Shown here in pieces: positions 20,497 through 37,790 of a stretch of DNA of 38,151 nt (positions are counted from its first letter, which is position 1; each line of letters opens with the position of its first letter). The notes below the pieces were generated by a model. The model worked only from the letters and a program-made list of their open reading frames with translations. It had not been told where the DNA came from and made no database searches. The position numbers and the translations under genes were made by a program. The DNA is from Limisphaerales bacterium (GTDB lineage Bacteria > Verrucomicrobiota > Verrucomicrobiia > Limisphaerales > UBA11358): NCBI GenBank assembly GCA_003133815.1, contig PKZR01000281.1:1-38151 (forward strand), read 5' to 3'.

Positions 20497-20507
20497 AGAT
20501 TGCCTTA

Positions 20508-23194: not shown

Positions 23195-23197
23195 AAT

Positions 23198-23788
23198 TCA
23201 ACCATTAAGGCAGGCTTTCCACGCTGCGCGTAATTCATCCGCAGTTGGTTTGCGATTTTTTGGTAAATGACTCTCGATACAGGATGGTGTTGGTATTCCA
23301 CCAACACCACCATCGGGATCAGTCACAATAAGAAAAAGAGCCGGACCCACCGGATGCCGAAACAAAGCTGTTTGTTCGTGATCTTCAATCCTGATCTTCG
23401 GCAAAAAATTAGAGCCGAATTCTCTCCTTGTATTAACCAAGCCGCTCAACTTTTCCACATTGTGGAATCCAAACGCGTCGAGCGAATATTTGAGGTCTTC
23501 TCCATTCGCAACTTTGCCGGAAACTTCTGAAGCGGCCCATAGCAAAGTGCGCTTGTGAGCGCTCGCCACATCCATACCGCTGGTTGCATTATAAACAAAA
23601 AGTTCCCGTAGTAATTGCATATGATTTTCCAGCGCATCATTAAAAAATGTCCGGGCCACCCTGATGATTTGAACCCGAATGAACCGGCAATATTCCGACC
23701 AATTTACATACAACTGCAACAGGAGAGTTGCCATCGTAAGTATGGCGAAAACAGCAATTGCTATCCATAGCCAATGTTTAAAATTCAT
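23198..23788 (-). CDS. hypothetical N-terminally anchored protein
   Basis: The track start 23791 is TTG; ATG at 23788. TM helix WLWIAIAVFAILTMATLLLQL. Its stop lies 3 nt before the next ATG. Confidence 0.55.
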   Translation of the reverse strand: MNFKHWLWIAIAVFAILTMATLLLQLYVNWSEYCRFIRVQIIRVARTFFNDALENHMQLLRELFVYNATSGMDVASAHKRTLLWAASEVSGKVANGEDLKYSLDAFGFHNVEKLSGLVNTRREFGSNFLPKIRIEDHEQTALFRHPVGPALFLIVTDPDGGVGGIPTPSCIESHLPKNRKPTADELRAAWKACLNG

Positions 23789-23929
23789 CAAACACTCCCC
23801 CGCTCATTAAAACGGGAGAAAAATAATTGCCAGCCGCGTATTTGAAAAGATTAAAACAAAATAATTTATTCTCGTCTGATAGCGTTTGGAATTGTCAAAA
23901 GTTCCATTTTCGATTGTTTTCACGTATTT

Positions 23930-24188: not shown

Positions 24189-24614
24189 TTATAGTAATTT
24201 CTTTATTTTATTAAAAATGATTCGCGCCAAAACTTTGTTGCGCCGATCTTGTAATTTAATAATTGGCTCTGCTTTCTTGTGATGCCAGATAATTATGAAT
24301 TCTGGTTTGAGGCTTTCAACTGCAAATACCGTTCCACCCCAATTTCTCGTTGTGCAGACAATGATATTGCATTTTTCTTTTTTGAATCGCTGAAGGCTTT
24401 CAGCCAGCCGACTGTTTGGGTCGCCCTGGCTCTCAATGCCAATTAATACGTCGTTGATCTTCATTATCAGAGAAATGTCGGCTCCGGGCGAGTGCAGGTG
24501 TTTAATGGGCGTAGTCGGATATGCCATTTTTAACAACCCGAAAATGTTTTTGATTGTGGAGCTTTTGCCGGTGTTGGCCGAGCCATAGACGGCAAAAATG
24601 GTCTTGGGATTCAT
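24189..24614 (-). CDS. small stand-alone P-loop NTPase-like protein (141 aa)
   Basis: The track start 24623 is TTG; ATG at 24614. Walker A GSANTGKSS, and a possible Walker B-like LIGIESQGD. It lies 108 nt downstream of the OLD-family gene on the same strand. Confidence 0.55.
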   Translation of the reverse strand: MNPKTIFAVYGSANTGKSSTIKNIFGLLKMAYPTTPIKHLHSPGADISLIMKINDVLIGIESQGDPNSRLAESLQRFKKEKCNIIVCTTRNWGGTVFAVESLKPEFIIIWHHKKAEPIIKLQDRRNKVLARIIFNKIKKLL

Positions 24615-24722
24615 ACGCCTCAATTCAATACTAATGCGACAAATTGAAACACAAAAAAATCATAAAATGTGTATATCAACAAGGATGAAAAACGCACGAT
24701 TTTCCTTGGCGAAAGCGCAAAG

Positions 24723-26540
24723 TTACCAGTTGAATGCAAATTGGACTAAATCTTTGATTTCAGCTTTCAGCGGATCTTCGCTTTCAACGATTTCTTTTAC
24801 ACGCTTCCAGATTCTATAGGGCTTATCACCGGAAGACTTTGGACGTTCCTCCCAAAACAAGTCTTCGAGAGTGTCGTCAATAACGCGAATGTTAGCAGGT
24901 TCCACAAATTGCGCGATTCGCGCATTCGCATTGTATGGATCAATTGGAATAGCCTCAGCAAGTTCCGCATCTGTGCGTCCTTTCTTGTCTCGGTCATGGA
25001 TTATTCGGAACGGAATCTCAAATTGTTTAAGCAAATTAGCTATAGGAGCAATTGTCCATTTTCCACCGCAGGAAACGACCGTGCAAAGAGATCGTTTTGC
25101 CATATCGACTTCGGCCTTGGCATAAAGCTCTTGCTGGTGAACCAGCAACGCCATTTCAGAATCACCTTCCACAAGCACGGTCCGTTTAGCAAAGAATGCT
25201 TCACAAACGGTGGGATGGAAGTCCAGAACAGCTCGCAGAGCTTCCCGATCTCGTTTCGATTCCACATCTTGGCCGAATGGGTCAACCTTGAGTTGGGAAA
25301 CCGTGGGAGGCGTTTTTGAATTTTCTCTTTTGAACACCGCGAGAGATAAAGGATCTGATCCAATATCAATTAAAAATGGCGAATGGGTGCTAACGATGAC
25401 TTGCCAATCCAGTTTCTGCGAAATTGCATGAAGGGCAGTCTTCAGCCTTCGCATGATATGTGGATGCAAGAAAAGTTCCGGTTCTTCAAAGAGGATGATT
25501 GTGCTTCGGGAGTGCAGTAAAACATTGGCCTCGTCCGTTATTTGAGCATTTTGTGCCGCCAGAACTTCCATCAACGCAAATATTAATGCCCGCTGCAAAC
25601 CGTTCCCCTGCAATTCAATTGAGGTTTTTGTTCCATCATCAAGGGCTATGCCGGTATTTGCGCCAATAAATTTTTCTGCATTTGGTGTTTCCATCGTCAG
25701 GAGCACCTTGGCATCAATTGTTGATGAAAGCCGTTCCGATATGAGCCTCGTGACTTCCCCAACTTTTTGAATTTGTTGTTCACCTTCAGCCGCAAGTTTA
25801 ACTTGAAGGTTTTCAACGGCCGTCATCAGGGTTAAATATTCTTCCGAAGTTTGAACCGCCGGAAGGATAATTTTGTTCAGGATCAAACCGAACGAGGTCT
25901 TGGCACCCGGTTTGCTATCTTCGCTCGCATTTCTAACAGCCGGAATTATCTGGGCTTGAGGAATGGCCTGCTGAAGAGCAGCATCAATGCTTATATTTTC
26001 ACCGGACCACTTTGGTTCACTCTGCGTAATTAATTCGGGTTTTGTTTCACGTATGCGTTGTCTGACCTGTTCCTGTTTTGCAGTGGGTTTCCATGTAGTT
26101 TGGTTCGTTATACCCAATTCTCCGGCGACGGCCTGAATTTCGGCATTTAGAGTGGCCCATTTATCCGACCAGCCGGCAATCACTTCCTCTGGTTTGAATG
26201 CCTCATACACTTTTTTTATTTTTTCAGTCTCGGCTTCGATAAAAAACCGGACGCGTAAGCGAATTTTGTCTGCATGAACAACTCCAGCTACGCCGGGTGT
26301 GGCTTTTTCCCATTCCTGTAAATCACCAAATTCACCTTCAATGATCATTTCCTTATCTTTATGCCCCTTGCGCCATTCCTCAATGCTTGGCGATTGTTGG
26401 TTCAAAAAGATTTCAATGGCGCGTAATACTGAAGATTTGCCACAATTATTCGGTCCAATAAAACTGGTAAAACCCCTGATATTGATAGTTGTGTCTTCAA
26501 TGCATCGAATGTTTTTTACTGTGATTGATTTTAATTTCAT
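24723..26540 (-). CDS. OLD-family ATP-dependent nuclease (ABC-type ATPase + C-terminal Toprim)
   Basis: ATG at 26540. MKLKSITVKNIRCI...FIGPNNCGKSS (Walker A), ILFEEPELFLHP (Walker B / D-loop region), Toprim TVLVEGDSEMALL and IIHDRDKKG. Confidence 0.85.
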   Translation of the reverse strand: MKLKSITVKNIRCIEDTTINIRGFTSFIGPNNCGKSSVLRAIEIFLNQQSPSIEEWRKGHKDKEMIIEGEFGDLQEWEKATPGVAGVVHADKIRLRVRFFIEAETEKIKKVYEAFKPEEVIAGWSDKWATLNAEIQAVAGELGITNQTTWKPTAKQEQVRQRIRETKPELITQSEPKWSGENISIDAALQQAIPQAQIIPAVRNASEDSKPGAKTSFGLILNKIILPAVQTSEEYLTLMTAVENLQVKLAAEGEQQIQKVGEVTRLISERLSSTIDAKVLLTMETPNAEKFIGANTGIALDDGTKTSIELQGNGLQRALIFALMEVLAAQNAQITDEANVLLHSRSTIILFEEPELFLHPHIMRRLKTALHAISQKLDWQVIVSTHSPFLIDIGSDPLSLAVFKRENSKTPPTVSQLKVDPFGQDVESKRDREALRAVLDFHPTVCEAFFAKRTVLVEGDSEMALLVHQQELYAKAEVDMAKRSLCTVVSCGGKWTIAPIANLLKQFEIPFRIIHDRDKKGRTDAELAEAIPIDPYNANARIAQFVEPANIRVIDDTLEDLFWEERPKSSGDKPYRIWKRVKEIVESEDPLKAEIKDLVQFAFNW

Positions 26541-26698
26541 AAAGAAAATCCGAAAACTCGTAAAGACGTTTTGTTGATTATACTACTCCCGGCCAAAATT
26601 GCACCTTTAAAAGTTCGCCTCTATATCGCATAATGCTGCGAGGTATTTTGCGATTGCCTAAAATTATTCGCGGGTTAAGATGATGAAAACGAACTCCG

Positions 26699-27667
26699 AT
26701 GACCAAGGGAAATCATCTGCAATTGTTTGACCAGGCCCATTTGAAAGCTCGGTTTAGTCCTGCTGGCGTTCATTTGTTTGACCGAGCGACCGGAATGAAT
26801 GTTCTTCTCGACGAGATTCGAGTGCCTTCAGTTATGTGGACGAACGCTCCGCGACAAGTTTCAATTGCGTTGACGAATGCGTGTGATCTTTCCTGTTCCT
26901 ACTGCTTTGCGCCAAAGAATCATGCAGTGCTTGATTTTGAAATGATTATCAGTTGGCTTGACGAACTGGATGCAAACGGCTGTTTTGGCATCGGCTTTGG
27001 AGGTGGAGAACCAACGCTTTATCCACGTCTGGCGGAACTGTGCCAATACGCAGCGGAGAACACGCGACTAGCTGTAACTTTTACTACTCATGCACACCAC
27101 CTTGACGAATCGCTTGTTTCCGCTTTGGCCAGTAACGTGCATTTTGTAAGAATTAGCATGGATGGTGTTGGTGCCACATATGAGGCACTCCGTGGACGGT
27201 CGTTTGCGGTGCTTCGCCAAAAACTAACTGTCATGCAGCAATTGTCGCCATTCGGAATCAATTTCGTTGTAAATTCACGCACTTTTCTTGATTTGGATGC
27301 AGCGACTGCGTTAGCTGCCGAGGTTGGTGCATCCGAATTTCTATTATTGCCTGAACAGCCCGTTCGCGGTGCTGGCGGCATTGATAGTTGCACGGCTCAA
27401 GAATTACACTTATGGGTCGCACAATATCGCGGCAAAGTTCGTCTTACAGTAAGCGAAGCAGGTGCTGACGGACTACCTACTTGCAATCCACTTGATAAAG
27501 AAACTGGACTTTGTGCTTACGTGCACATTGATGCGTCTGGCATCTTAAAACATTCTTCTTATGAGAATGATGGTGTGGCTATCGGCGATGGCGGGGTAAT
27601 GCAAGCGATAAATGAATTGCAAACTTTTAGAAGGAGGAACAACAATGAAAATCTGGCACGGTTATAG
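26699..27667 (+). CDS. radical SAM enzyme (not viperin-type)
   Basis: ATG at 26699. CDLSCSYC (CX3CX2C, nt 26882-26905), GFGGGEPTLY SAM-binding motif, and three further Cys residues near the C-terminus. Confidence 0.85.
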   Translation: MTKGNHLQLFDQAHLKARFSPAGVHLFDRATGMNVLLDEIRVPSVMWTNAPRQVSIALTNACDLSCSYCFAPKNHAVLDFEMIISWLDELDANGCFGIGFGGGEPTLYPRLAELCQYAAENTRLAVTFTTHAHHLDESLVSALASNVHFVRISMDGVGATYEALRGRSFAVLRQKLTVMQQLSPFGINFVVNSRTFLDLDAATALAAEVGASEFLLLPEQPVRGAGGIDSCTAQELHLWVAQYRGKVRLTVSEAGADGLPTCNPLDKETGLCAYVHIDASGILKHSSYENDGVAIGDGGVMQAINELQTFRRRNNNENLARL

Positions 27668-28040
27668 TTCAGAACACTCACACAATATCGTAATGATCGG
27701 TCGCTTCAAAACTGCGGCTGATGCAAAAGATGCAGACGCCGCAATCAGTCAAATCAGCGATCGGGTGCGCAATGAAGGTGACGCTAATCGTGAAGCGGAG
27801 CGTTATAGCCAAGCGTTGGTTGACCTCTTGTCAAAATTGAAAATCCACACTATCACACCCGGTGAGCTTGAGCAATTTACTTATGATGTTCATGTTGATC
27901 TTAAGAATGACCGAATAGAATTATGGACTGACGAAGGGGTGGTAACGGCGTTCTTGAAGGTGCTTGTTGATTCGGGCGCTCGTGTTGAGGTCTATTCTGC
28001 GCACGATTATCCTGAAACGGAGGAAAAGAAAGACAAATGA
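27645..28040 (+). CDS. hypothetical small acidic protein (131 aa)
   Basis: AAGGAGG at 27631-27637 lies 7 nt upstream of the ATG at 27645; the track start 27612 is also an ATG but lacks an RBS. It overlaps the end of the radical SAM gene by 23 nt and ends 21 nt before the STAND gene. Confidence 0.6.
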   Translation: MKIWHGYSSEHSHNIVMIGRFKTAADAKDADAAISQISDRVRNEGDANREAERYSQALVDLLSKLKIHTITPGELEQFTYDVHVDLKNDRIELWTDEGVVTAFLKVLVDSGARVEVYSAHDYPETEEKKDK

Positions 28041-28061
28041 GGCGGCGATAATAGGAAACCT

Positions 28062-31000
28062 ATGCCATCCGTAAATTGGAATGTATTTGAGCAGTTGCCC
28101 GGTAGCGCAGAGAATAACTTTGAAATGTTGTGTCGAGCGCTTATACGCCGACATTACGGGGGCCATGGTCAATTTGCAGCGCTTGCAAATCAACCGGGGG
28201 TAGAGTTTCACTTAAAATTGCATACCGCCTGCGCCCTTGGCAAACCTAACCGCTGGTTTGGTTGGCAGTGTCGCTGGTATGGAACTTTGCCAAGCGGCAC
28301 GTCACTTGGGCAAGCGCGCCGAGATAAAATTGAAAAGTCGCTATCAACAACCGTAAAGGTGTTGCCTGACTTGACTGACTGGGTATTGTGGACACGACAT
28401 CCACTCACTGCGGGCGATCAAAAATGGTTCTATGGCCTTAAGGCAAAGATGCACCTAAAAATGCGTCTCGATCTTTGGACCAAGGCGGATGTCGAAGACC
28501 TTCTTAATGGTGAAGCTGAAATTTTTAGGAGCACCTACTTTGGCGATTTAATTCTTTCACCCAATGCTTTGTCAACCCTACATGGGACATGGGTTGCGCG
28601 TGTTAAAAAGCGTTGGTTGCCTGAAGCCCACCAAGTCGTCGAAGCCGAAAGAACGTTAAGACGAATGCTTGGGGAAACCCAATCGTGGGAACAGTTGGTG
28701 AACGTTGCTGATCGGCTGTTAGCCGCTACCAAATCCATCAATGCTGACATAGATAAATTGACAGGTCCGCTTGCCACGACAACCAAAGAATTCGTTGAAT
28801 ACGTTCAGCTTTTTGCCACATCATTAAATGAAGCACACAAACTGCTTGGCAAGGGCGACCTTGACCTTCTCCGACAGCAGCTTGAAGCCCGTGTCAATAT
28901 GCCTACCGCAAAGCTGACAACTGCCTTACGCAAATTGCGGGCAGCCCGGCAGCGTGCAGCGCTGATTGCCACAAATACACTTGCTGACCTGCGTTTAGGT
29001 CACAAGCTTCTTGATGAGGTCAATAGTTTTCTTGGAACACGACTTGTTGGTGTTCTGGCGGACGCTGGAGGTGGCAAGACCCAGCTTGCGGCACAATTAA
29101 CAGCCCCATCGTCTGATAGACCTGCCGGAATTTTGATTTATGGCCAAGACCTCCACGCGGGTCACGATCTCGATGAACTAGCTCGTAAAGTGACGTTGCC
29201 GGGAACTGGAACGCCTATTTCCAACATGGAGGCTCTTGTCGCGGCACTGGACGCCGCCGGACAACGTGCCCACCGACGACTTCCAATCATAATTGACGGC
29301 CTAAACGAGGCTGAAGATCCACGAAATTGGAAAGGTCCACTCGCTTCACTTAATGAAACCCTTCGCCGCTATCCATACGTCTTGGTTGTATGCACACTAA
29401 GAACTGGAACGCGTCTTCCTACTGAGCAAAACGAGTGGCAACCTGCTCCCGAAGTGTGCACTCGAAGAACGGCTTTCGCTGATGAAGCATTGCCGGAGGG
29501 AATTCAACACTTGGAAATGTCTGAATTTGGCGGAGATACGACGGAAGCCATCAGGCGATACTTTCAATATTATAAAATCAATTCTGGCGACGTAGAATTG
29601 CCGCTTTTGCTTAGCCATCCATTAACTCTCCGTTTGTTCTGTGAAGTAACCGACCCAAAGCGTGAGAAAGAAGTGGGTATCGAAGCGATGCCTGGGTCGC
29701 TTACTGCTATATTTGAAAGTTATTTAGGAAAGGCGGCTGAACGTATTGCAGAACTCGCACCACTCAGTCGTAGATATTACGAACTGGACGTGCAAAGGGC
29801 ATTCGACGAAATCGGAACAAGTCTTTGGGATCGCCGCGCACGCACCGTTAGCGAACGTGACTTGCGAAAAACATTAGGTGACGAAACTCGGCCATGGAAT
29901 GAGAGCATTGTTCGTGCATTGGAGCAAGAAGGCGTCATTCTACGATTGCCGGGAATTGCTCCGGGTGACATAGATGTAATGGCTGTTTACGATGCCATGG
30001 GAGGTCATCTTGCGGCAAAGGCAATTTTAATGCGTCACGGTGGGAATGCATTTGAACAATGGTTGAAAAATCCGACGACGCTTGCAGCTTTGTCTGAACC
30101 TCCATCCGGTCGGTTCCGTCCCACTGTGCAGCCACGAACGCTTGAGCCGTCGCCCATTGAATTATCACCTGCCCACCCACTAGCCACTGATATTTTTCGA
30201 GCTTTAGTGGGGCTTGTTCCCCGGCACCTTAATCGGCAACAATTGTGGCCGTTGCTCGATGAACCGCTACGAACCCTCGCTCTTTTAAGAGCATCCCGTT
30301 TGGAAGGTGCATACCTCGATAATGCAACCGTTCAGGCACTCTTCATGCTCGCGTCCGAATCAAGCAAATTGTTTCCCCGATTGCATCAAACACGCGGTGC
30401 CGTAGCGCACCCTCTTAATGCCAATTTTTTGGATTCGGTTTTGCGTCCGATGAAGGTGGCGCAACGCGACCTTATCTGGACCGAGTGGATTCGACGGAAT
30501 CGGGAGATTTTTCTCGACAGATTACACGATTTGGAACAACGATGGCGCCGTGTGCCGACGACACGAACATCTTCAGATCAACTTACAGCACGGTGGGTCA
30601 TGTGGATGCTTACAAGCACAATTCGGGAGCTTCGTGATAAGGCGACTCGCACTCTATATTGGTTTGGTCGTGGAGATTCGACAACGCTGTTTGAGCTGAC
30701 CTATGAATCGCTGGCAATAAATGATCCATATATTCCAGAACGTATGATGGCTGCAAGTTATGGAGTAGCAATGGCACGACACGTTGATTTAACAGGCAAA
30801 AATTTTGTAAAAAAAATATTGCCAGTTTGCGCAAAACGTATTTATGAGTTGATTTTTAAGGAAAATGCACCTCACAGCAATACCCACGTTTTGATGAGAG
30901 AATATGCAAGAAGAATATTGGAACTTGCATCATTTCATCATCGTAAAAATTTTTCAGCGGTGGAGACGGCCAGAACAATGCCACCATATAAAGATGGTGG

Positions 31001-32408
31001 TCTACGCGAGTGGCCAGAAAGCAAAACTGGCAAAGATGAATTCTACGGCCAAAACTCTCCATTCCGTATGGATTTTGAGAATTATACGTTAGGTCGACTC
31101 GTTCCAGGCCGTGGAAATTATGACTCAAAAAATCCGGAGTATCGGAAGATCAGAGCGCAAGTGCTGTGGCGGGTTGAGCAGCTTGGTTGGTCTGTCGAGC
31201 TTTTCAAAGAAATAGACCAACAGATTGCAAACGATCTGCGCTATCCGCACGGACGATCATCCGACGAAAATAAGAAAACTGACCGATATGGAAAGAAGTA
31301 TTCATGGATAGCCTATTTTGAAATGGCTGGGCTATTGCGAGATCAGGGCAAAATAGGCAAAGACTATGAAGATGACGATAGGCCAAGCGATATTGCAATT
31401 GACCCGAGTTTTCCGTTACCGCTTCCGAAAGAGAGACTTATTTCAGGCGATTTTCTGGGCAGTCCAAAATTATCACTGAAAGATTGGATAGCGAATGGTG
31501 GTGTGCCAAACGTGTCTCCATACCTTAAAATGTCGGAGGTTCAGAATCAACCGGGGCCGTGGATTGCGCTTGATGGTTTTTTTACGCAGGAAGATGCAAG
31601 ACGCGGGCGAAGAACATTCTGTTTTATTCGCAGTTTTTTGGTAGAGCAGCCAGACGCCAATTCGTTTTTTAAGCATCTATCGCAGCAAAATCTTGGTGGC
31701 CGATGGCTGCCTGACAATCCAAGAGTCATATACACTTTCGCAGGGGAAATCCCGTGGTGTAAAATCTATCCAAAATATGGATTTAGGAAGTTCCATTTTG
31801 TGGTTGCTGAAAAAAAAGTGAAAATAAAACGAAAGAGGCCAGCTTGTTTTTTAGACGGGAAGCAGATTCAATTAACGCGGTTCGACCTTCATCGTATGGC
31901 AAATATGCCCATCATGTTCAGTGCCGATGAGAAAACAGGTCTTTCACCAGAAGAAATTGAACGCGTAGAACTGCGCAATATCATTGTCGAGGAAGAAGAG
32001 ATTCAGAGGCAAACCAACTCATTCAAGGCGTTGATTCCAGTTTGTGACTTCGGATGGGAAGGCAAAAATTTTGAGAATGAATCTATTCATGCGACCGTCT
32101 TGGCCAAAGAGATTGCTAATAGTCTTCAATTAGTCGGACAACCGCAAACATTTGACTCATTTACGAAAGATGGCGTGAGAGCAACATTCGGAGTTGCAGA
32201 ACGGAGCAATTACAACAACAGTCAGAGCTTGTTCTTGATACGGGAAGATTTGTTAAAGGGTTATCTTAAAAATAAGAAGTTGTCACTTGTTTGGGCAATA
32301 TGGGGAGAACGTGAATACGCAACGGATCTTATCAATAAATGGAATGATAGCAAGCGGCCTAAAATACCCTATAAAGTATACCAAACGATAAAACAATTCA
32401 AAGCGTAA
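28062..32408 (+). CDS. 1448-aa STAND (NACHT-like) NTPase with an N-terminal Mrr-like PD-(D/E)xK-type domain and a long uncharacterised C-terminal region
   Basis: ATG at 28062. N-terminal FEMLCRALI...QPGVEFHLKL...WFGWQCRWY resembles Mrr_cat (FE..., GiD, QcK) but with QCR. Walker A ADAGGGKT (nt 29061-29081). Walker B LPIIIDGLNEAED (about nt 29280-29318). Confidence 0.8.
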   Translation: MPSVNWNVFEQLPGSAENNFEMLCRALIRRHYGGHGQFAALANQPGVEFHLKLHTACALGKPNRWFGWQCRWYGTLPSGTSLGQARRDKIEKSLSTTVKVLPDLTDWVLWTRHPLTAGDQKWFYGLKAKMHLKMRLDLWTKADVEDLLNGEAEIFRSTYFGDLILSPNALSTLHGTWVARVKKRWLPEAHQVVEAERTLRRMLGETQSWEQLVNVADRLLAATKSINADIDKLTGPLATTTKEFVEYVQLFATSLNEAHKLLGKGDLDLLRQQLEARVNMPTAKLTTALRKLRAARQRAALIATNTLADLRLGHKLLDEVNSFLGTRLVGVLADAGGGKTQLAAQLTAPSSDRPAGILIYGQDLHAGHDLDELARKVTLPGTGTPISNMEALVAALDAAGQRAHRRLPIIIDGLNEAEDPRNWKGPLASLNETLRRYPYVLVVCTLRTGTRLPTEQNEWQPAPEVCTRRTAFADEALPEGIQHLEMSEFGGDTTEAIRRYFQYYKINSGDVELPLLLSHPLTLRLFCEVTDPKREKEVGIEAMPGSLTAIFESYLGKAAERIAELAPLSRRYYELDVQRAFDEIGTSLWDRRARTVSERDLRKTLGDETRPWNESIVRALEQEGVILRLPGIAPGDIDVMAVYDAMGGHLAAKAILMRHGGNAFEQWLKNPTTLAALSEPPSGRFRPTVQPRTLEPSPIELSPAHPLATDIFRALVGLVPRHLNRQQLWPLLDEPLRTLALLRASRLEGAYLDNATVQALFMLASESSKLFPRLHQTRGAVAHPLNANFLDSVLRPMKVAQRDLIWTEWIRRNREIFLDRLHDLEQRWRRVPTTRTSSDQLTARWVMWMLTSTIRELRDKATRTLYWFGRGDSTTLFELTYESLAINDPYIPERMMAASYGVAMARHVDLTGKNFVKKILPVCAKRIYELIFKENAPHSNTHVLMREYARRILELASFHHRKNFSAVETARTMPPYKDGGLREWPESKTGKDEFYGQNSPFRMDFENYTLGRLVPGRGNYDSKNPEYRKIRAQVLWRVEQLGWSVELFKEIDQQIANDLRYPHGRSSDENKKTDRYGKKYSWIAYFEMAGLLRDQGKIGKDYEDDDRPSDIAIDPSFPLPLPKERLISGDFLGSPKLSLKDWIANGGVPNVSPYLKMSEVQNQPGPWIALDGFFTQEDARRGRRTFCFIRSFLVEQPDANSFFKHLSQQNLGGRWLPDNPRVIYTFAGEIPWCKIYPKYGFRKFHFVVAEKKVKIKRKRPACFLDGKQIQLTRFDLHRMANMPIMFSADEKTGLSPEEIERVELRNIIVEEEEIQRQTNSFKALIPVCDFGWEGKNFENESIHATVLAKEIANSLQLVGQPQTFDSFTKDGVRATFGVAERSNYNNSQSLFLIREDLLKGYLKNKKLSLVWAIWGEREYATDLINKWNDSKRPKIPYKVYQTIKQFKA

Positions 32409-32594
32409 CGCTTTACTGTCGCACTTTATATTGGCAATGCCGCTCTATAAGAAACAACATTATCTACCGAACGCGTATTTAAAGTATTGTTCCACCGATC
32501 AAAACCCATCTGACAATTTATCAGCACCAATTTTACGGGCGACTTACATGGTAAGTAGGGGCAATCTGCCCAACGATTGAATTGCACGGCTTAA

Positions 32595-32912
32595 CCGCCG
32601 CACCACTGGCTCCCAACGTGTCGTCGGCTACCGCTCGACAATTCTCTTTCTCCCTGACGGGCTAACCGGCTAAAGGACATCTACCCGCTGTCCTTTAGCA
32701 GAAAGAGAATTGTCGGGCGGGACGGGCTATCGCCCTTACCCGCCGACACGTTGGGGGACTGGTGTTAAGAGAAGGTGCTATCGCACCGACCACCAGCCCG
32801 CTAACGCGACAATTCGCCCGAAGGCGGAGTCACGACGGGTGTTACTTGGAGAAAGAGTCGCCGCGACTGCGGCACTGAAAATGAGCCGCGCCGAATGGCG
32901 CGTCCTTTTTTT
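32595..32912 (+). ncRNA. candidate structured RNA (or DNA-level oriT/recombination locus): GC-rich nested hairpins ending in a terminator
   Basis: The outer helix pairs 32601-32628 with 32742-32764. A perfect 16-bp helix pairs 32636-32651 with 32700-32715. An 11-bp hairpin pairs 32669-32679 with 32689-32699. Further hairpins include 32774-32787. I recognised no known RNA family. Confidence 0.35.
32885..32912 (+). terminator. intrinsic terminator
   Basis: GC stem ccgcgcc/ggcgcg with a GAAT loop, followed by tcc and a run of seven T (32906-32912). Confidence 0.6.
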
Positions 32913-32943
32913 GCCGGAACCGGCAAGTTTCGGCGTCTGGTTT

Positions 32944-32964
32944 AATATGCGGGATTCGCATATT
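32944..32964. promoter_or_regulatory. 8-bp perfect inverted repeat upstream of the T4CP-like gene (possible operator)
   Basis: aatatgcg (32944-32951) and cgcatatt (32957-32964) are separated by ggatt. Confidence 0.25.
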
Positions 32965-33046
32965 CTCTGAATCTCAATCGGATTTCAAAACCAGTCGCCA
33001 TTACCCCGCCGGCCTGTTCCCAAACATCCTGCCGGCGTTCAGTCTG

Positions 33047-34387
33047 ATGACACGGGGACTTTGGGAGTGGCGACTGGTTTTGGAACCTGACGAACCAAAC
33101 ATAGTGATCGGAAATCGTGACGGCTACGGAAAGCCGTTGCCTTTTGGCATATCTGCCAGCGACCAGCGGCAGCATATTTACATCATCGGAAAAACAGGAT
33201 CAGGAAAGACGACATTGCTCCGCAACCTGATTTTGCAGCACATCAAACTTGGACATGGCATTGGACTGATTGATCCGCACGGGGACTTGGCCGAAGAATT
33301 GTTACATCACATTCCGCCCAAGCGGGCTGACCACTTGGTATATTTTAATCCGGGTGACATTGAATTTCCAATCGGGCTTAACTTGCTCGCAAATGTCGCG
33401 CCGGATGACCGGCATCTTGTGGCATCCGGCATCGTGGGCGCGTTCAAGGGCATCTGGCGGGATTCATGGGGGCCGAGGCTTGAATATATCCTCTACAATG
33501 CGGTGTCAGCCCTTTTGGACTGCCGGAACGCAACCCTTTTGGGCGTCAACCGGATGCTCACGGATGACACATACCGGGCCAAAGTGGTCCGGCAGATCAA
33601 AGACCCATTCATCAAGGCGTTTTGGGCGGAGGAATATGCCAGATATGACGAACGGTTCAAACGCGAGGCCATCGCGCCCATTCAAAACAAGCTCGGCCAG
33701 TTTCTTTTGAACCCGGTGATCCGAAACATTTTGGGTCAAGTGAAGAACAAAGTGAGCATCCCATTTGTCATGGACAACCAGAGGCTGTTCATCGCCAACC
33801 TGTCGAAAGGCAGGCTTGGACACGACAAAGCGAATTTGCTTGGATCATTGCTGACAACGCAATTCCAGCTTGGCGCAATGGCGCGGGCGAACCGGCCAGA
33901 GGAAGAACGAAAAGATTTTTACCTATTCATTGACGAGTTCCAGAACTTTTCAACCAACGCGTTCGCGTCCATTCTCGCGGAAGCCCGAAAATATCGCTCA
34001 TGTCTGACGTTATCGCACCAATACATTGACCAGCTTCCGCTTCCGATCCGGCAAGCGGTATTCGGCAATGCAGGGACATTGATTTCCTTTCGCATCGGCA
34101 ATACCGATGCCGAAGTGATGGAAAAGGAATTCGGCAATACATTCCCGGCGAGTGTTCTGGTTGACCTTGACCGATATGAGGCGGCGGTGAAATTGCTGGA
34201 CGATGGAATGAATCGGGAACCGTTTCGGGCGAAGATGCTGCCTCCATTGGAAAACCGCGTTGGCCGGAAGGACAAACTCATCGCCCTATCGCGCGAACGG
34301 TTTGCCGTTCGGCGCGCGAAGATTGATGTAAAATTGAAGCGGTGGATGAATTCAAAGATAACTCCGCTACTGACAGACGAATCGTAA
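33047..34387 (+). CDS. TM-less TraD/VirD4-like (T4SS DNA-binding domain, FtsK/HerA-superfamily) P-loop ATPase
   Basis: ATG at 33047. Walker A IIGKTGSGKTTLL, DPHGDL, Walker B FYLFIDEFQNF, SHQYIDQL. Confidence 0.75.
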   Translation: MTRGLWEWRLVLEPDEPNIVIGNRDGYGKPLPFGISASDQRQHIYIIGKTGSGKTTLLRNLILQHIKLGHGIGLIDPHGDLAEELLHHIPPKRADHLVYFNPGDIEFPIGLNLLANVAPDDRHLVASGIVGAFKGIWRDSWGPRLEYILYNAVSALLDCRNATLLGVNRMLTDDTYRAKVVRQIKDPFIKAFWAEEYARYDERFKREAIAPIQNKLGQFLLNPVIRNILGQVKNKVSIPFVMDNQRLFIANLSKGRLGHDKANLLGSLLTTQFQLGAMARANRPEEERKDFYLFIDEFQNFSTNAFASILAEARKYRSCLTLSHQYIDQLPLPIRQAVFGNAGTLISFRIGNTDAEVMEKEFGNTFPASVLVDLDRYEAAVKLLDDGMNREPFRAKMLPPLENRVGRKDKLIALSRERFAVRRAKIDVKLKRWMNSKITPLLTDES

Positions 34388-34398
34388 TATCCATCATA

Positions 34399-35343
34399 TT
34401 AAAATTGTTGCTCATTTCCAAATTCCACAAAATCAGAAGCGCGGTGATAATGATCGAGACTGATGATTCCTGGACCCTCAACAAACATTTTTGCATAGCC
34501 AGAGCAAATACCCATTTTAAGAATTTCCAGTGATGTTTTATTTTGGGCAATGCCCAAAGCAAAAGCCCCTACCATTGCATCACCGCAGCCTATTACATCA
34601 AGATCGCCTTGCTCGTGTAGATTTGTTTTGGCTTGAACGTAATGTCTTTTTTCACGGTCAATCCATAAGGCTCCATTTTGACCCAATGACACCACCACAA
34701 TGTTGCTTTTTATCAGATTTGATGCCGTAGTCACGATCTCATCTATGTTGACAAGGTTTCTTCCAGCCAGCCTGGAAAGCTCTTCCAGATTAGGTTTTAC
34801 GAGCCTCACATTTTTACAGTCAATTTTACTTAACAAGGGAGGGTCAACATCCAGCAGAATAATTCCTTTGCGCTCGGAAATCAGGCGCACAAGCTTGTCC
34901 AAGTAGTCAGGTGGAGTTCCTATTGGAATGCTTCCCGACACAACAATCACGTCTCCTTCATTTATACTTGGATAAAGCGCCTTTTCAAGCTCATTTAGAT
35001 TTGATTCCGTGACATGATAGCCTTGGTTTTGGACATGACATATCAATTCAGCGTTCTTATTTACCAATGTGATGTTTTTTCGTGTCACCCCTTCACAGGC
35101 TATGACATGAGCCTTTATTTGAGGAGATATGGACGAAAACGAGTGAACTTCATTGGCTCCGCTAAAGCAATACAAGCCCACTTCTCCTCCTAAAGAAGCG
35201 ATGGCGCGCGAATTATTGACAGCCTTGCCAGCCAAATACTCCCTATAACCTTCAGAGCGGATAATCGCTCCAAGAGTAAATTGAGGTATTCTTATTCGGA
35301 TGTCTATGGCTGTATTTAATGATATTGCGTGAATGTTTCTCAT
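34399..35343 (-). CDS. PfkB-family carbohydrate kinase, 1-phosphofructokinase/tagatose-6-P kinase (FruK/LacC)-like
   Basis: The ATG at 35343 overlaps the stop of the TIR gene (ATGA at 35340-35343). SLNTAIDIRI, LAGKAVNNSRAIASLGG, KPNLEELSRL, VSLGQNGALW, DVIGCGDAMVGAFALG. Confidence 0.85.
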   Translation of the reverse strand: MRNIHAISLNTAIDIRIRIPQFTLGAIIRSEGYREYLAGKAVNNSRAIASLGGEVGLYCFSGANEVHSFSSISPQIKAHVIACEGVTRKNITLVNKNAELICHVQNQGYHVTESNLNELEKALYPSINEGDVIVVSGSIPIGTPPDYLDKLVRLISERKGIILLDVDPPLLSKIDCKNVRLVKPNLEELSRLAGRNLVNIDEIVTTASNLIKSNIVVVSLGQNGALWIDREKRHYVQAKTNLHEQGDLDVIGCGDAMVGAFALGIAQNKTSLEILKMGICSGYAKMFVEGPGIISLDHYHRASDFVEFGNEQQF

Positions 35344-36677
35344 TTTGCGATTTGAATCTTATCCTTCGCCTTTTCGACCAGCTCCATGTAACGCGAATCT
35401 GTCCCACCATCATTGGTAATCAGTATAACATCGTCCTGAAATGTCCCAAAACACACTTCTTCAACAATGCCGATTTTTGAAATGTCACCGAGAATGAGCT
35501 TCTTCCTGCCGTTCTTCATGAGGCTCAATTTGTTTTTGGTTTCGGCGTTGCTATGGGTGGTAAAACCTTTTTCAAAATGAATACCATTAACTCCTATAAT
35601 CGAAAAATCTACACCGCCTAGCTGGTCGAAAATATTTTGAAGCTGAACGGATTCTTGACCTTGCTCTTCAATCACGGCAAGGGTGTTGGGGCGGACTCTG
35701 CCACCACCCAAGTATAACTTAAAACCACTATTTTCGTCATCGAACCCCAGTCGGGTTCCTGTTTCCAAAAAAATGTTCGCTGCACTGATTGAAGTTGTGA
35801 CAATTGAGATGTTAAAGAGGGATTTGTTTGCAAGGCGCGTGCAAAGAATTTTCGCCAGTTCGTCAGTTGTAGAACCGGCGTCTAAAGCAATTTTGTGACC
35901 AGATCGAATGTGTTGTGCGGCGACTTTTGCTATTTTTCGCTTCGCCTCGGCGGATATTTTGCCTTTCCATTTGTAATGCTCCTCTCGGACATAAAGCTCG
36001 AAACCATCATAAACAAGACCCGGAATTAAATCATTTTGAATGATCTTGCGCATCAATGTTTCAAAATCATTGGAGTTATAGTCCGGTGACTTTGATTTTA
36101 GAATGGCGTGCAGTTCGTCCACTTGCAGCGGTTTTGACTCTCGATACCCAAAGACAACCTGCCTGATTGAGTCTGCAATTTCATTTAACACTTCATCGGT
36201 TCGATCAATAACAGACGCCTTTGTCACGCTTGCCGGGCTTCTGAGCGATTGTATGTCCCTGCAAATCAGTGAAAAAAGTTCTGATGTAATTCGCTTGGAT
36301 AATGCGCGCACCGAATTTTCAGTGTAGTCCTCAAGTTTTAGATATTTTCGTTCCTTGATTATTTCGGGCTTGATATTATTCCATGCTTCTTTATCAACAA
36401 CAATAGGCAGGAGAAAAACCCTGTCCAACTTGCGCTCTTGCTCCAGTGTCCATGAAATCTCTTTCTCTACCCATGGTGAATTCACCGAAAAGGAATCAAT
36501 GAAAAGCAAAATATAGTCGGTTTCCTTTTTTATTGCGTTTTCCAGACTGTGTTCAATTGAATCGCCTATTAGAAGTTTATCTTCATCAATCCATGTATTG
36601 ATATGGTCGGGGAGAATCTTGCGAATTTCGCGAACTAACGGCTTTTGACCGCTGCTATGGCTAAAAAATATTCTCAT
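35340..36677 (-). CDS. TIR domain fused to a DeoR-type module (degenerate wHTH-like linker + DeoR C-terminal sugar-phosphate sensor domain)
   Basis: ATG at 36677. TIR: MRIFFSHSSGQKP...DYILLFIDSFSVNSPWVEKEI, with a candidate catalytic Glu (E73, nt 36459-36461) in the S.W...E. motif. DeoRC: KIALDAGSTTDELAKIL, ISIVTTSISAANIF, LYLGGGRVRPNT, DFSIIGVNGI, KLILGDISKIG, VILITNDG. Confidence 0.8.
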   Translation of the reverse strand: MRIFFSHSSGQKPLVREIRKILPDHINTWIDEDKLLIGDSIEHSLENAIKKETDYILLFIDSFSVNSPWVEKEISWTLEQERKLDRVFLLPIVVDKEAWNNIKPEIIKERKYLKLEDYTENSVRALSKRITSELFSLICRDIQSLRSPASVTKASVIDRTDEVLNEIADSIRQVVFGYRESKPLQVDELHAILKSKSPDYNSNDFETLMRKIIQNDLIPGLVYDGFELYVREEHYKWKGKISAEAKRKIAKVAAQHIRSGHKIALDAGSTTDELAKILCTRLANKSLFNISIVTTSISAANIFLETGTRLGFDDENSGFKLYLGGGRVRPNTLAVIEEQGQESVQLQNIFDQLGGVDFSIIGVNGIHFEKGFTTHSNAETKNKLSLMKNGRKKLILGDISKIGIVEEVCFGTFQDDVILITNDGGTDSRYMELVEKAKDKIQIAK

Positions 36678-36887
36678 AAAATGTTTCCAGTTCCTGATTG
36701 CGACAGCAACAGCGCAACTTTGAGACGCATTGATTATATTGCTTAAAATCTACGTCCCGCAAGAACCAATCAATGTTGTGCCGTGTCTGTAAAATTTATT
36801 CACGGCCTTAAATTACCCTGCAAACTTGCCGCAAACGACAAACCTTGGCGCCTTCATTGACTGCCTGCCATCGTGCAAAATGGCGCG

Positions 36888-37790
36888 ATGGAATCACGCC
36901 TTCCACGATTCAACCGCGCCCCCATCGTTGCATCCATGCAGCTTGAGGAGCGCGACAGCCAGATCATCCGGCTCGTCCACCGGCACCGTTTTCTCCGTTC
37001 CGATCACATTGTTTCCTTCATGGGAGGCAGTCGGCAGCAGATTTTGCGACGATTGAAACTTTTGTATCACCACGGATATTTGGAACGCCCCCGTGCCCAA
37101 ATCCAATACTACGAGCGCGGCGGCTCCCGCAGCATTGCATACGGGTTAGGAAATAAAGGAGGGGTGGTGCTGCGGCAGCTTGGCATCACGGTGGATTCTG
37201 ATTCATGGACCGAAAAGAACCATGTCATCGGTCGGGTATATCTTGAACACGCCTTAATGGTGGCAGACGTGATGGCAGCGGTTGAACTCGCCTGCCGGAA
37301 ACATGGTGGCGTCCGGCTTCTCTACGAAGACGAGCTTGCACTTCCCATGGAACGTCAGCCGTTTGGTTGGCAGGTGAAGATTCAGAATGGTTTGAAACTT
37401 GGCGTCATCCCCGACCGTGTATTTGCATTGGATTTTTCAGATGCAAGTGGTCAAAACCAGCGTGTGCATTTCTTTCTTGAGGCCGACCGGGGAACCATGC
37501 CGGTCACGCGTCATACGCTTTCTCAAACTTCCTTTTTCCGCAAGCTGCTTGCATACGAAGCGACATGGACGCAGAAAATTCACCAGCGGTATCTTGGAAT
37601 CCATCGGTTCCGGGTGCTTGCCGTCACGATCAGTGCGGCACGGGTGAAATCAATTGGGGATGCGTGTTCCCAATTGAAACGCGGACACGGCTTGTTCCTG
37701 TTTGCCGATAAAACCATTTTGACCGGCGACATAATTTCTTCCGTCTGGCAGACCGGCAGGTCGGGGGAAATTGGGAGTCTGTTGGGTTAG
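36888..37790 (+). CDS. replication-relaxation (Replic_Relax) family protein
   Basis: The track start 36873 is GTG; in-frame ATGs lie at 36888 and 36936. LEERDSQIIRLVHRHRFLRSDHIVSF...ILRRLKLLYHHGYLER, ...IPDRVFAL...FFLEADRGTM. Confidence 0.75.
   Translation: MESRLPRFNRAPIVASMQLEERDSQIIRLVHRHRFLRSDHIVSFMGGSRQQILRRLKLLYHHGYLERPRAQIQYYERGGSRSIAYGLGNKGGVVLRQLGITVDSDSWTEKNHVIGRVYLEHALMVADVMAAVELACRKHGGVRLLYEDELALPMERQPFGWQVKIQNGLKLGVIPDRVFALDFSDASGQNQRVHFFLEADRGTMPVTRHTLSQTSFFRKLLAYEATWTQKIHQRYLGIHRFRVLAVTISAARVKSIGDACSQLKRGHGLFLFADKTILTGDIISSVWQTGRSGEIGSLLG

What the first reader, a model, noticed from the sequence alone, without database searches (positions are those of the whole stretch)
26699..32408. 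Radical SAM enzyme + small acidic protein + Mrr-like/STAND NTPase three-gene operon
What the sequence shows: three same-strand genes are packed tightly (23-nt overlap, then a 21-nt gap). The first is a 322-aa radical SAM protein (CDLSCSYC, GGGEPTLY). The second is a 131-aa acidic protein with its own AAGGAGG RBS. The third is a 1448-aa protein with a NACHT-like P-loop (ADAGGGKT; IIIDGLNEAED). Its N-terminal domain has motifs resembling the Mrr-type restriction nuclease core (FE...GVE...QCR, with R where Mrr has K), and ~800 aa of C-terminus are unassigned. Established knowledge: STAND NTPases with N-terminal nuclease effectors and C-terminal sensors are the Avs/bNACHT defence architecture. The only well-known defence radical SAM enzymes are the viperins, whose cluster context (CN.KC.FCFH) differs from this one. 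Inference: a dedicated radical SAM partner for an Avs-like sensor is not a described configuration. The enzyme might modify a nucleotide, the small protein or the NTPase itself. The operon is divergently transcribed from the OLD nuclease gene across a 158-nt shared intergenic region.
Basis: partly seen in the sequence, partly recalled or inferred. Interest (0 to 1): 0.85.

Follow-up and report, generated by a model that had tools for sequence, protein, structure and literature searches.

The report
Avs2 antiphage operon with Avap1/Avap2
This three-gene cluster is a divergent copy of a published, tested bacterial anti-phage system (an Avs2 sensor-nuclease with its radical SAM partner Avap1 and small partner Avap2), so it is real but not new, and the two partners' roles are still unknown.

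Summary
Three tightly packed same-strand genes encode a 322-aa radical SAM protein, a 131-aa acidic DUF6375 protein and a 1448-aa STAND NTPase.

The novelty claim does not hold. This configuration is the "KpAvs2 operon" of Béchon et al. 2024 (Nat Commun, PMC11564622): Avap1 (radical SAM), Avap2 (DUF6375) and an Avs2 with an N-terminal Mrr-like nuclease. That operon was shown to defend E. coli by abortive infection.

- **Large protein:** it matches Avs2 models (E = 1.8e-111). Its clade profile aligns with solved EcAvs2 (9O4E) over the NTPase and sensor.
- **Nuclease domain:** its profile matches the EcAvs4 nuclease.
- **Synteny:** the order Avap1, Avap2, Avs2 held in 76 of 77 informative genome loci found with Avap1, and in 74 of 75 loci informative on both sides found with Avap2. 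One locus is from a genome the paper names.
- **OLD gene:** it is an unrelated neighbour in a defence island on a mobile element.

New details: Avap1 has no SPASM/twitch cysteines, and its fold is closest to the RiPP maturases SkfB and SuiB, then to viperins. The catalytic Lys (K71 in KpAvs2) is Arg here and in about 40% of homologues, with repeated K/R switches.

Verdict: a new member of a known kind, of low interest.

The parts
26699..27667 (+). Avap1: radical SAM enzyme, 322 aa. The cluster cysteines C62, C66 and C69 and the GGGEP motif (101-105) are invariant. There is no auxiliary-cluster domain.
   Evidence: Pfam PF04055 scores E = 1.1e-13. Alignment A1 shows the CX3CX2C and GGGEP motifs invariant, and only one near-invariant Cys (C262) in the C-terminal part. 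The AF2 model has pLDDT 87.5. The best Foldseek matches are SkfB and SuiB (about 1e-15), then viperins (about 1e-11).
27630..27636 (+). Shine-Dalgarno sequence AAGGAGG for Avap2. It lies inside the 3' end of Avap1, which suggests translational coupling.
   Evidence: Read directly from the sequence.
27645..28040 (+). Avap2: DUF6375 protein, 131 aa, pI 5.2.
   Evidence: Pfam PF19902 scores E = 3.6e-44. Invariant residues are M1, K2, W4, E10, H11, S12, E74, Q77, T95, E97, K105, G111, A112, E115, S118 and H120. The AF2 model has pLDDT 81, with an alpha/beta core and a low-confidence N-terminal tail. No PDB fold matches significantly.
28062..28436 (+). Avs2 residues 1-125: Mrr-like PD-(D/E)xK nuclease effector. 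The motif residues are E21, E48, Q69 and R71; the R71 codon is at 28272-28274.
   Evidence: Profile A2 matches the N-terminal nuclease of EcAvs4 (8dgf) at E = 1.9e-5, with GVE aligned to GIE and GWQCK to GWQSK. Position 71 is K in 45 and R in 31 of 76 homologues, while E48 and Q69 are invariant and position 21 is E in 75 and D in 1.
28437..29036 (+). Avs2 residues 126-325: helical linker or bundle between the nuclease and the NTPase. In KpAvs2 this is the region that binds Avap2.
   Evidence: The region's role comes from Béchon et al. 2024. Here it is one of the least conserved parts, with mean pairwise identity 0.39. I did not test binding.
29037..29741 (+). Avs2 residues 326-560: STAND NTPase. 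Walker A is G336-G-G-K339-T (the K339 codon is at 29076-29078). Walker B is I409-IIDGLNEAED with D412.
   Evidence: G336, G338, K339 and D412 are invariant in A4. The region aligns with the EcAvs2 NTPase in 9O4E.
29742..32408 (+). Avs2 residues 561-1448 plus the stop codon: Avs2-type sensor domain. The distal C-terminus is variable and is presumed to form the phage-protein recognition pocket.
   Evidence: PADLOC Avs2 models match residues 765-1420. The profile aligns with EcAvs2 9O4E over profile positions 329-1214 at E = 3.6e-49. The C-terminal 450 aa are the least conserved part, at 0.37.
26541..26698 (.). 158-nt spacer shared with the divergent OLD gene. It holds a weak sigma-70-like site at 26606-26634 (+).
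   Evidence: The number of promoter-like sites does not exceed the shuffled expectation, so this is only a plausible location for the promoter.

Best explanation
The locus is a KpAvs2-type antiviral STAND (Avs2) system with its two accessory genes. It sits in a defence island on a mobile element of an uncultured bacterium.

**Mechanism by homology to tested relatives (inferred for this copy)**
1. The C-terminal sensor of the 1448-aa Avs2 binds a phage protein. For relatives this is the large terminase subunit or small phage proteins such as Ksap1 and Ksap2.
2. Binding drives NTP-dependent oligomerisation of the STAND module.
3. Oligomerisation brings the N-terminal Mrr-like nuclease domains together.
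4. The nucleases degrade DNA indiscriminately, and infection is aborted.

**The accessory proteins**
- Avap2 (DUF6375, acidic) is a constitutive partner that binds the helical region between the nuclease and the NTPase. In KpAvs2 it is needed for full defence.
- Avap1 is an intact radical SAM enzyme that widens the phage range. In KpAvs2 it is needed against T2 but not against SECphi18.

**My own inference about Avap1 (about 0.25-0.3 on its own)**
- Avap1 is as conserved as the catalytic domains of Avs2.
- It lacks a SPASM/twitch domain.
- It is structurally closest to the peptide-modifying maturases SkfB and SuiB.
- It therefore most likely acts on a conserved internal protein substrate, either Avap2 or Avs2, and not on a nucleotide.

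**The Arg at position 71.** It is a functional alternative to the catalytic Lys, not an inactivating change.
For: **Domain assignments**
- Pfam gives Radical_SAM and DUF6375.
- PADLOC Avs2 scores E = 1.8e-111.
- The clade profile matches EcAvs2 9O4E at E = 3.6e-49 over the NTPase and sensor.
- The N-terminal profile matches the EcAvs4 nuclease at E = 1.9e-5.

**Published experiments on the same architecture (Béchon et al. 2024, PMC11564622)**
- The three-gene operon of radical SAM Avap1, PF19902 Avap2 and Mrr-STAND Avs2 protects E. coli by abortive infection.
- The K71A and K337A mutations abolish defence.
- Avap2 co-immunoprecipitates with Avs2.
- Avap1 is needed against T2.

**Link to that operon**
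- Gamma- and betaproteobacterial homologues in my set carry the motif Lys at residue 71 and the Walker Lys at 337, exactly the published numbering.
- L045 comes from Nitrospirae bacterium JdFR-85, a genome shown in that paper's Fig. 1B.

**Synteny**
- Of the 80 genome loci found with Avap1, 77 had enough contig to judge, and 76 of those had the order Avap1, Avap2, Avs2.
- Of the 81 loci found with Avap2, 74 carry all three genes. A further 6 are cut by contig ends, and one lacks Avs2.
- RefSeq plasmids of Picosynechococcus and Vibrio carry the same trio.

**Avap1 features:**

**Conservation by region:** Avap1 core 0.56, nuclease 0.57, NTPase 0.55, distal sensor 0.37.

**K/R at position 71**
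- K in 45 and R in 31 of 76 homologues, with E48 and Q69 invariant and position 21 acidic throughout (E in 75, D in 1).
- At least 5 K/R switches on a rough NJ tree.
Against: - No experiment exists for this particular copy.
- Its Avs2 is only about 37% identical to the KpAvs2-like proteobacterial homologues.
- It falls below NCBIfam's Avs2 equivalog cut-off, at 297.9 bits against 1000.
- KpAvs2 K71A is inactive, so an Arg at this position could in principle weaken catalysis.
- The biochemical roles of Avap1 and Avap2 are unknown even for KpAvs2.
- My protein-substrate idea for Avap1 rests only on fold ranking. Viperins match with similar TM-scores, about 0.65 against 0.67.
- I could not run a complex prediction.
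Confidence: 0.88

Rival explanations
1. The radical SAM protein is a viperin-like enzyme. It makes a chain-terminating or otherwise antiviral nucleotide, and it acts as an independent defence gene that merely travels with Avs2.
For: - PADLOC pVip models hit the radical SAM core (E = 9e-19, residues 54-196).
- Viperin structures match the AF2 model with TMq about 0.65 and rmsd about 3 Å.
Against: - Only the N-terminal half of the pVip model aligns.
- The NCBIfam viperin score is 52.7 bits against a cut-off of 180.
- SkfB and SuiB rank above the viperins in both the sequence-profile and the fold search.
- The gene was found with Avap2 in all 80 loci found with Avap1, and with Avs2 wherever the contig allowed except in the decayed L030.
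- Béchon et al. found no pVip-type nucleotides, saw no NTP pocket in the model, and found no defence from Avap1 alone.
Confidence: 0.07
2. The window's Avs2 is nuclease-dead because the catalytic Lys is replaced by Arg (R71). The system would then signal or act through another output, for example Avap1 chemistry.
For: - R71 aligns with KpAvs2 K71, and K71A abolishes defence.
- Arg at this motif position is unusual for PD-(D/E)xK nucleases (my own knowledge, not tested here).
Against: - R occurs in 31 of 76 homologues, while E48, Q69 and the WQC context stay invariant and position 21 stays acidic.
- K and R interchange at least 5 times on the tree.
- The nuclease domain is the most conserved part of Avs2, at 0.57.
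- This pattern is what purifying selection on an active site that tolerates either basic residue would give.
Confidence: 0.08
3. The cluster is a RiPP-like biosynthetic unit and not a defence system. The radical SAM maturase would modify the small protein as a precursor, and the large NTPase would act as a regulator or processing factor.
For: - The closest solved relatives of Avap1 are the RiPP maturases SkfB and SuiB.
- The small gene is translationally coupled to Avap1.
Against: - Avap2 is a folded 131-aa alpha/beta protein with no Cys, not a leader-core peptide.
- Pfam finds no RRE/PqqD or SPASM domain in Avap1.
- The large protein is an Avs2 with a nuclease effector.
- The homologous operon is an experimentally shown antiphage system.
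- The locus lies among other defence genes: OLD, TIR, and patatin with a protease.
Confidence: 0.02
4. The radical SAM gene is a housekeeping cofactor or tRNA-modification enzyme that is merely adjacent.
For: NCBIfam gives weak hits to MftC, MoaA and PqqE.
Against: - All of those hits fall far below their cut-offs, for example 61.7 bits against 265.
- The gene is linked to Avap2 and Avs2 across many phyla and one archaeon.
Confidence: 0.01

Closest known systems
KpAvs2 operon (Avap1-Avap2-KpAvs2) of Klebsiella pneumoniae S_15PV, Béchon et al. 2024, Nat Commun 15:9860 (PMC11564622)
   Same: - Same three genes in the same order: radical SAM (PF04055), DUF6375 (PF19902), then Avs2.
- Same Avs2 layout: Mrr-like nuclease, helical linker, STAND NTPase and long sensor.
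- The nuclease-motif residue is at position 71 in both, and the Walker Lys is at 339 here against 337 in KpAvs2.
- Same habit of sitting in defence islands.
   Different: - The sequences are divergent. Against proteobacterial KpAvs2-like homologues such as L066, Avs2 is about 37% identical, Avap1 about 55% and Avap2 about 42%.
- The protein is 1448 aa, against about 1353 aa.
- It has R71 in place of K71.
- The Avap2 C-terminal tail is acidic (ETEEKKDK), whereas many homologues carry a YGRGK tail.
- The host is probably a verrucomicrobial or planctomycete lineage, and the phage targets are unknown.
   Same: The NTPase and sensor are homologous (E = 3.6e-49 over profile positions 329-1214). Activation is presumably by tetramerisation on binding a phage protein.
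   Different: EcAvs2 works as a single gene and has a different, uncharacterised N-terminal effector. It has no Avap1 or Avap2 partners.
EcAvs4 (PDB 8DGF) N-terminal Mrr-like nuclease
   Same: The effector domain is homologous. The GxE and GWQxK motifs align (E = 1.9e-5).
   Different: Avs4 has a different sensor, which recognises the portal protein (my own knowledge, not tested here), and no accessory genes. Here the Lys is replaced by Arg.
Prokaryotic viperins (pVip)
   Same: Both are radical SAM enzymes found in a defence context. The partial TIM-barrel core is similar.
   Different: - Avap1 fails the viperin HMM cut-off.
- The context of the cluster motif differs: ACDLSCSYCF here.
- Avap1 gives no defence alone, and no ddh-nucleotides were detected for KpAvs2.
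SkfB and SuiB (RiPP radical SAM maturases)
   Same: They are the best matches for Avap1 both by sequence profile and by fold.
   Different: - Avap1 lacks the twitch/SPASM auxiliary-cluster cysteines.
- It has only a short three-stranded N-terminal sheet, with no full RRE.
- There is no precursor-peptide gene.

Membership tests
Avs2 (AVAST type 2 antiviral STAND) | [quoted passage not shown] | tested here: met
   G336, G338, K339 and D412 are invariant in 28 homologues. The region aligns with the EcAvs2 NTPase.
Avs2 (AVAST type 2 antiviral STAND) | C-terminal sensor homologous to Avs2 sensors | tested here: met
   Six PADLOC Avs2 models hit, the best at E = 1.8e-111. The match to PDB 9O4E EcAvs2 is 7e-28 for the single sequence and 3.6e-49 for the profile, over positions 329-1214.
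Avs2 (AVAST type 2 antiviral STAND) | Score above the NCBIfam NF041813 equivalog cut-off | tested here: inconclusive
   The score is 297.9 bits against a cut-off of 1000. It is significant (E = 1.7e-88) but below the strict equivalog threshold. That fits a divergent subclade with a different effector. The cut-off is a curation threshold, not a biological feature.
Avs2 (AVAST type 2 antiviral STAND) | Activation by a phage protein (terminase or others), leading to abortive infection | not testable with these tools
   Shown for KpAvs2 and EcAvs2 in the literature only.
KpAvs2-type three-gene operon (Avap1-Avap2-Avs2) | Avap2 is a PF19902 (DUF6375) protein immediately upstream of Avs2 | tested here: met
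   PF19902 scores E = 3.6e-44. A 21-nt gap separates it from Avs2. The arrangement is conserved in the related loci.
KpAvs2-type three-gene operon (Avap1-Avap2-Avs2) | Avap1 is a PF04055 radical SAM protein immediately upstream of Avap2 | tested here: met
   PF04055 scores E = 1.1e-13. It overlaps Avap2 by 23 nt. Of the 81 loci found with Avap2, 77 show Avap1 upstream; the other 4 are cut by a contig end.
KpAvs2-type three-gene operon (Avap1-Avap2-Avs2) | N-terminal Mrr-like PD-(D/E)xK nuclease on the Avs2 | tested here: met
   The profile matches the EcAvs4 nuclease domain at E = 1.9e-5 with the catalytic motifs aligned. The motif Lys is Arg here, as in 31 of 76 homologues. I did not model the fold of this domain.
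KpAvs2-type three-gene operon (Avap1-Avap2-Avs2) | Homology to loci that the paper itself assigns to the family | tested here: met
   L045 (Nitrospirae bacterium JdFR-85, named in Fig. 1B of PMC11564622) has the same trio, at 56%, 49% and 43% identity. L066-type homologues reproduce the K71 and K337 numbering. The KpAvs2 sequence itself was not available to me.
KpAvs2-type three-gene operon (Avap1-Avap2-Avs2) | Avap2 physically binds the helical bundle of Avs2 | not testable with these tools
   No multimer prediction was available. The evidence is published co-immunoprecipitation and AlphaFold-Multimer for KpAvs2.
Viperin / pVip | Full-length match above the family threshold, including the C-terminal nucleotide-binding extension | tested here: not met
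   NCBIfam viperin_w_prok scores 52.7 bits against 180. Only residues 54-171 align. PADLOC pVip covers model positions 2-150 of 257.
SPASM/twitch radical SAM maturases | C-terminal cysteine set for an auxiliary Fe-S cluster | tested here: not met
   Only C262 is near-invariant after the core. C231 and C272 of the window protein are not conserved. Pfam gives no SPASM hit.
   An OLD-like match appeared in 1 of 80 loci, and it was weak.

The most novel reading that the evidence does not exclude
Avap1 is a radical SAM enzyme that post-translationally modifies a component of the immune receptor complex. The target would be the invariant, apparently flexible N-terminal tail of Avap2 (MKxWxxxxSEHS) or Avs2 itself. 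The modification would license or retune an NLR-like sensor for certain phages. This would be the first case of radical SAM protein chemistry controlling a STAND/NLR-type immune receptor. A smaller point: a PD-(D/E)xK nuclease clade in which Arg and Lys interchange freely at the catalytic position.
Probability: 0.2. Interest if true: 0.75.

Novelty: new member of a known kind. Interest (0 to 1): 0.22.

Why it matters
For genome annotation, this trio should be labelled as an Avs2 system with Avap1 and Avap2. It is currently annotated as [quoted passage not shown], even in RefSeq.

The open question is what the radical SAM enzyme and the DUF6375 protein do for an NLR-like receptor. It was still unanswered in the 2026 literature I could search. 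This divergent copy and the comparative data here narrow the hypotheses:
- Avap1 has no auxiliary cluster.
- Its fold is maturase-like.
- It evolves slowly.
- Linkage of the three genes is near-obligate.
- K and R interchange in the nuclease motif.

None of this makes the locus itself a discovery.

Tried and rejected
- **Near-identical DNA in plasmids:** none found.
- **Avap1 homologues in phage genomes:** none found. Only one viral contig carries Avap2, so this is not a phage-borne system.
- **Rfam scan of the whole window:** no hits. The 640-nt gap after Avs2 has no convincing ORF.
- **Foldseek of Avap2 against the PDB:** nothing significant. The best E-value was 0.08, with vague ferredoxin-like matches.
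- **Profile search of Avap2 against 1.84 billion representatives:** 347 clusters, essentially all stand-alone proteins of about 130 aa. The few longer ones I read are a tandem duplication, a disordered acidic tail and an unrelated N-terminal extension. They give no functional clue.
- **Supplementary tables of Béchon et al.:** not held, so I could not check whether this exact contig is in their homologue list or obtain the KpAvs2 sequence.
- **Promoter scan:** not above the shuffled expectation.
- **OLD as a partner:** rejected, with one weak match in 80 loci.
- **Housekeeping, SPASM/twitch and viperin assignments for Avap1:** rejected.
- **Link between the Avap2 tail type (GRG or acidic) and the K/R state of Avs2:** no clean association by eye. 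I did not pursue it.

Full report
**1. Observation**

- 26699-27667 (+, 322 aa);
- 27645-28040 (+, 131 aa);
- 28062-32408 (+, 1448 aa).

The first two overlap by 23 nt, and a 21-nt gap precedes the third. An AAGGAGG Shine-Dalgarno sequence sits 8 nt before the second start. All quoted motifs are present: CDLSCSYC at residue 62, GGGEPTLY at 101, ADAGGGKT at 333 (Walker K339) and IIIDGLNEAED at 409. The small protein is acidic, with pI 5.2. Its homologues fall mostly between 4.5 and 5.5, with one at 6.3, and the large protein is basic at 9.2. The OLD-family gene at 24723-26540 (-) is divergent across 158 nt. These are real genes: Pfam Radical_SAM scores E = 1.1e-13 and DUF6375 scores E = 3.6e-44.

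**2. What it is**

The large protein matches six PADLOC Avs2 models, the best at E = 1.8e-111. It also matches NCBIfam Avs2 at E = 1.7e-88, which is below that model's strict equivalog cut-off. A profile of its clade (A4) aligns with the solved EcAvs2 structure 9O4E from the Walker A motif to about residue 1214, at E = 3.6e-49. So the "unassigned 800 aa" are the Avs2 sensor. A profile of the first 200 residues (A2) matches the N-terminal nuclease of EcAvs4 (8DGF) at E = 1.9e-5. In that alignment GVE aligns with GIE and GWQCK with GWQSK.

A full-text search for DUF6375, and for Avs2 plus radical SAM, returned one paper: Béchon et al. 2024 (PMC11564622). It describes this exact configuration:
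- The operon has three genes: Avap1 (radical SAM), Avap2 (PF19902) and KpAvs2 (Mrr nuclease, STAND NTPase and Avs2 sensor).
- About 5% of Avs2 homologues are associated with Avap2, and most of those also with Avap1.
- The operon protects E. coli by abortive infection with DNA degradation.
- The K71A (nuclease) and K337A (Walker) mutations abolish defence.
- Avap2 binds the helical bundle between the nuclease and the NTPase, and it is needed for defence.
- Avap1 is dispensable against SECphi18 but needed against T2.
- No viperin-type nucleotides were detected.

**3. Link between the window and that family**

A scan of one genome per species with an Avap1 alignment found relatives in 266 stretches of those genomes. 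Among the best 80 loci, 77 had enough contig to judge. In 76 of those the order Avap1, Avap2, Avs2 on one strand is kept. The exception, L030, is a decayed remnant with a truncated Avap2. The set spans Cyanobacteria, Verrucomicrobiota, Planctomycetota, Acidobacteriota, Chloroflexota, Firmicutes, Proteobacteria and one archaeon.

Searching from Avap2 instead gave 81 loci:
- 74 carry all three genes;
- 6 are cut by contig ends;
- 1 lacks Avs2 in the 721 nt available downstream.

L045 is from Nitrospirae bacterium JdFR-85, one of the genomes drawn in the paper's Fig. 1B. The gamma- and betaproteobacterial homologues (for example L066, 1353 aa) have the motif Lys at residue 71 and the Walker Lys at 337, the published KpAvs2 numbering. 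RefSeq plasmids of Picosynechococcus and Vibrio carry the trio, annotated as radical SAM / DUF6375 / hypothetical. An OLD-like gene accompanies the trio in only 1 of 80 loci, and that match is weak. OLD is therefore an independent neighbour.

**4. Context**

Identical copies of the Avs2 protein occur on metagenome contigs. The window is a defence island on a mobile element. It holds:
- a large serine recombinase;
- a TrwB/HerA-like ATPase;
- a Replic_Relax relaxase;
- OLD;
- a TIR-DeoRC fusion with a PfkB kinase;
- a cluster of trypsin-like protease, Trypco1 and patatin.

Primase, ligase and ArdC genes lie beyond the window on the longer contig.

**5. New details about the parts**

*Avap1*
- The cluster motif (C62, C66, C69) and GGGEP are invariant.
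- After the core only one Cys (C262) is near-invariant, so there is no SPASM or twitch auxiliary cluster.
- It falls below every curated NCBIfam cut-off: MftC 61.7 bits against 265, viperin 52.7 against 180.
- Its best solved relative by profile is SkfB, at 9.4e-17.
- The AF2 model has pLDDT 87.5. It is closest to SkfB and SuiB (E about 1e-15, TMq 0.65-0.67). Viperins follow at E about 1e-11 with TMq about 0.65.
- A three-stranded sheet (residues 15-37) precedes the core.

*Avap2*
- It is a compact alpha/beta protein with pLDDT 81.
- Its invariant N-terminal residues (M1, K2, W4, E10, H11, S12) fall in a low-confidence tail.
- It has no significant fold match in the PDB.
- The family is small, at 347 clusters among 1.84 billion representatives, and essentially always stand-alone.

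*Conservation by region across 61 complete systems*

| Region | Mean pairwise identity |
|---|---|
| Avs2 nuclease | 0.57 |
| Avap1 core | 0.56 |
| Avs2 NTPase | 0.55 |
| Avap2 | 0.50 |
| Avs2 middle region (residues 561-1000) | 0.43 |
| Avs2 helical bundle | 0.39 |
| Avs2 distal sensor | 0.37 |

The accessory enzyme therefore evolves like a catalytic module. It does not evolve like a surface caught in an arms race with phages.

- Position 71 is K in 45 and R in 31 of 76 homologues.
- E48, Q69 and the WQC context are invariant, and position 21 is E in 75 and D in 1.
- A rough NJ tree needs at least 5 K/R changes.
- I read this as functional interchangeability, not inactivation. That is an inference.

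**6. Mechanism**

By homology to tested relatives, but inferred for this copy:
1. The sensor binds a phage protein.
2. The STAND module oligomerises.
3. The nuclease is activated.
4. DNA is degraded and infection is aborted.

Avap2 would be a bound cofactor, and Avap1 would extend the range of phages covered. My added inference, at about 0.2-0.3, is that Avap1 modifies a protein of the complex and does not make an antiviral nucleotide. It rests on the maturase-like fold ranking, the slow evolution and the near-obligate linkage. The near-equal structural similarity to viperins counts against it, and I could not run a complex prediction.

**7. Comparison and novelty**

The system is a member of the published KpAvs2-type Avs2 operon family. 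It differs in four ways:
- sequence divergence (Avs2 about 37%, Avap1 about 55% and Avap2 about 42% identity to proteobacterial members);
- a longer distal sensor;
- R71 in place of K71;
- an acidic Avap2 tail.

Later papers on Avs2 and a search for Avap1 and Avap2 show no resolution of the accessory proteins' roles. The finding is therefore a correct reading of the sequence with an outdated novelty claim. It is a new member of a known kind. The residual interest lies in the unsolved function of Avap1 and Avap2.

Noticed in passing
window 34399-36677 (-): A 445-aa fusion of a TIR domain (residues 3-123) with a DeoR C-terminal sugar-phosphate sensor domain (243-422). It overlaps by 4 nt with a downstream PfkB-family sugar kinase (34399-35343). 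PADLOC gives only weak TIR hits. This may be an undescribed TIR defence pair with a metabolite-sensing module.
   Followed up: partly
window 16911-23791 (-): A same-strand run of a trypsin-like protease (16911-17975), a Trypco1 protein (17976-18371), a patatin-like phospholipase (18419-20074) and three ORFs without family hits (20508-21794; 21839-23194; 23198-23791). The second of these, 21839-23194, looks hydrophobic by eye. PADLOC matches no known system except a weak protease hit. It looks like a protease-linked conflict system.
   Followed up: partly
window 24189-26540 (-): An OLD-family nuclease (AAA_15 plus OLD-like TOPRIM; PADLOC Old E = 7.7e-77) is followed by a 144-aa ORF with a P-loop-like GSANTGKSS motif and no family assignment. 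The pair is not conserved next to the Avs2 trio elsewhere.
   Followed up: partly
window 28272-28274 (Avs2 R71) and loci L001-L165: The catalytic Lys of the PD-(D/E)xK motif (WQCK) is Arg in about 40% of the Avs2 proteins of this operon family. At least five K/R switches are needed on a rough tree, and the other motif residues stay conserved (E48 and Q69 invariant; position 21 E in 75, D in 1). The parts of the 2024 paper I could read do not mention this.
   Followed up: yes
window 27645-27680 (Avap2 residues 1-12); alignment A3: The most strictly conserved stretch of Avap2 (MKxWxxxxSEHS) is predicted with low confidence, so it may be flexible, in the monomer model. Many homologues end in a YGRGK tail that the window protein lacks. 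Either could be an interface or a modification site.
   Followed up: partly
window 32409-33046: A 640-nt non-coding gap follows Avs2. It has several GC-rich hairpins, including a terminator-like stem plus T-run at 32887-32902 (+). There is no Rfam match and no convincing ORF.
   Followed up: partly
window 10761-16041; 33047-37790: Mobile-element genes frame the island: a large serine recombinase (14350-16041), a TrwB/HerA-like ATPase (33047-34387) and a Replic_Relax relaxase (36873-37790). Primase, ligase and ArdC lie beyond the window on the longer contig. The N_methyl and DUF1559 proteins at 10761-12770 suggest a Planctomycetota or Verrucomicrobiota host.
   Followed up: partly
L030 7929-9187: A decayed copy in a Latescibacterota genome. 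Avap1 is intact (331 aa), Avap2 is truncated (88 aa) and Avs2 is absent. This was the only informative locus without the full trio among those found with Avap1.
   Followed up: partly
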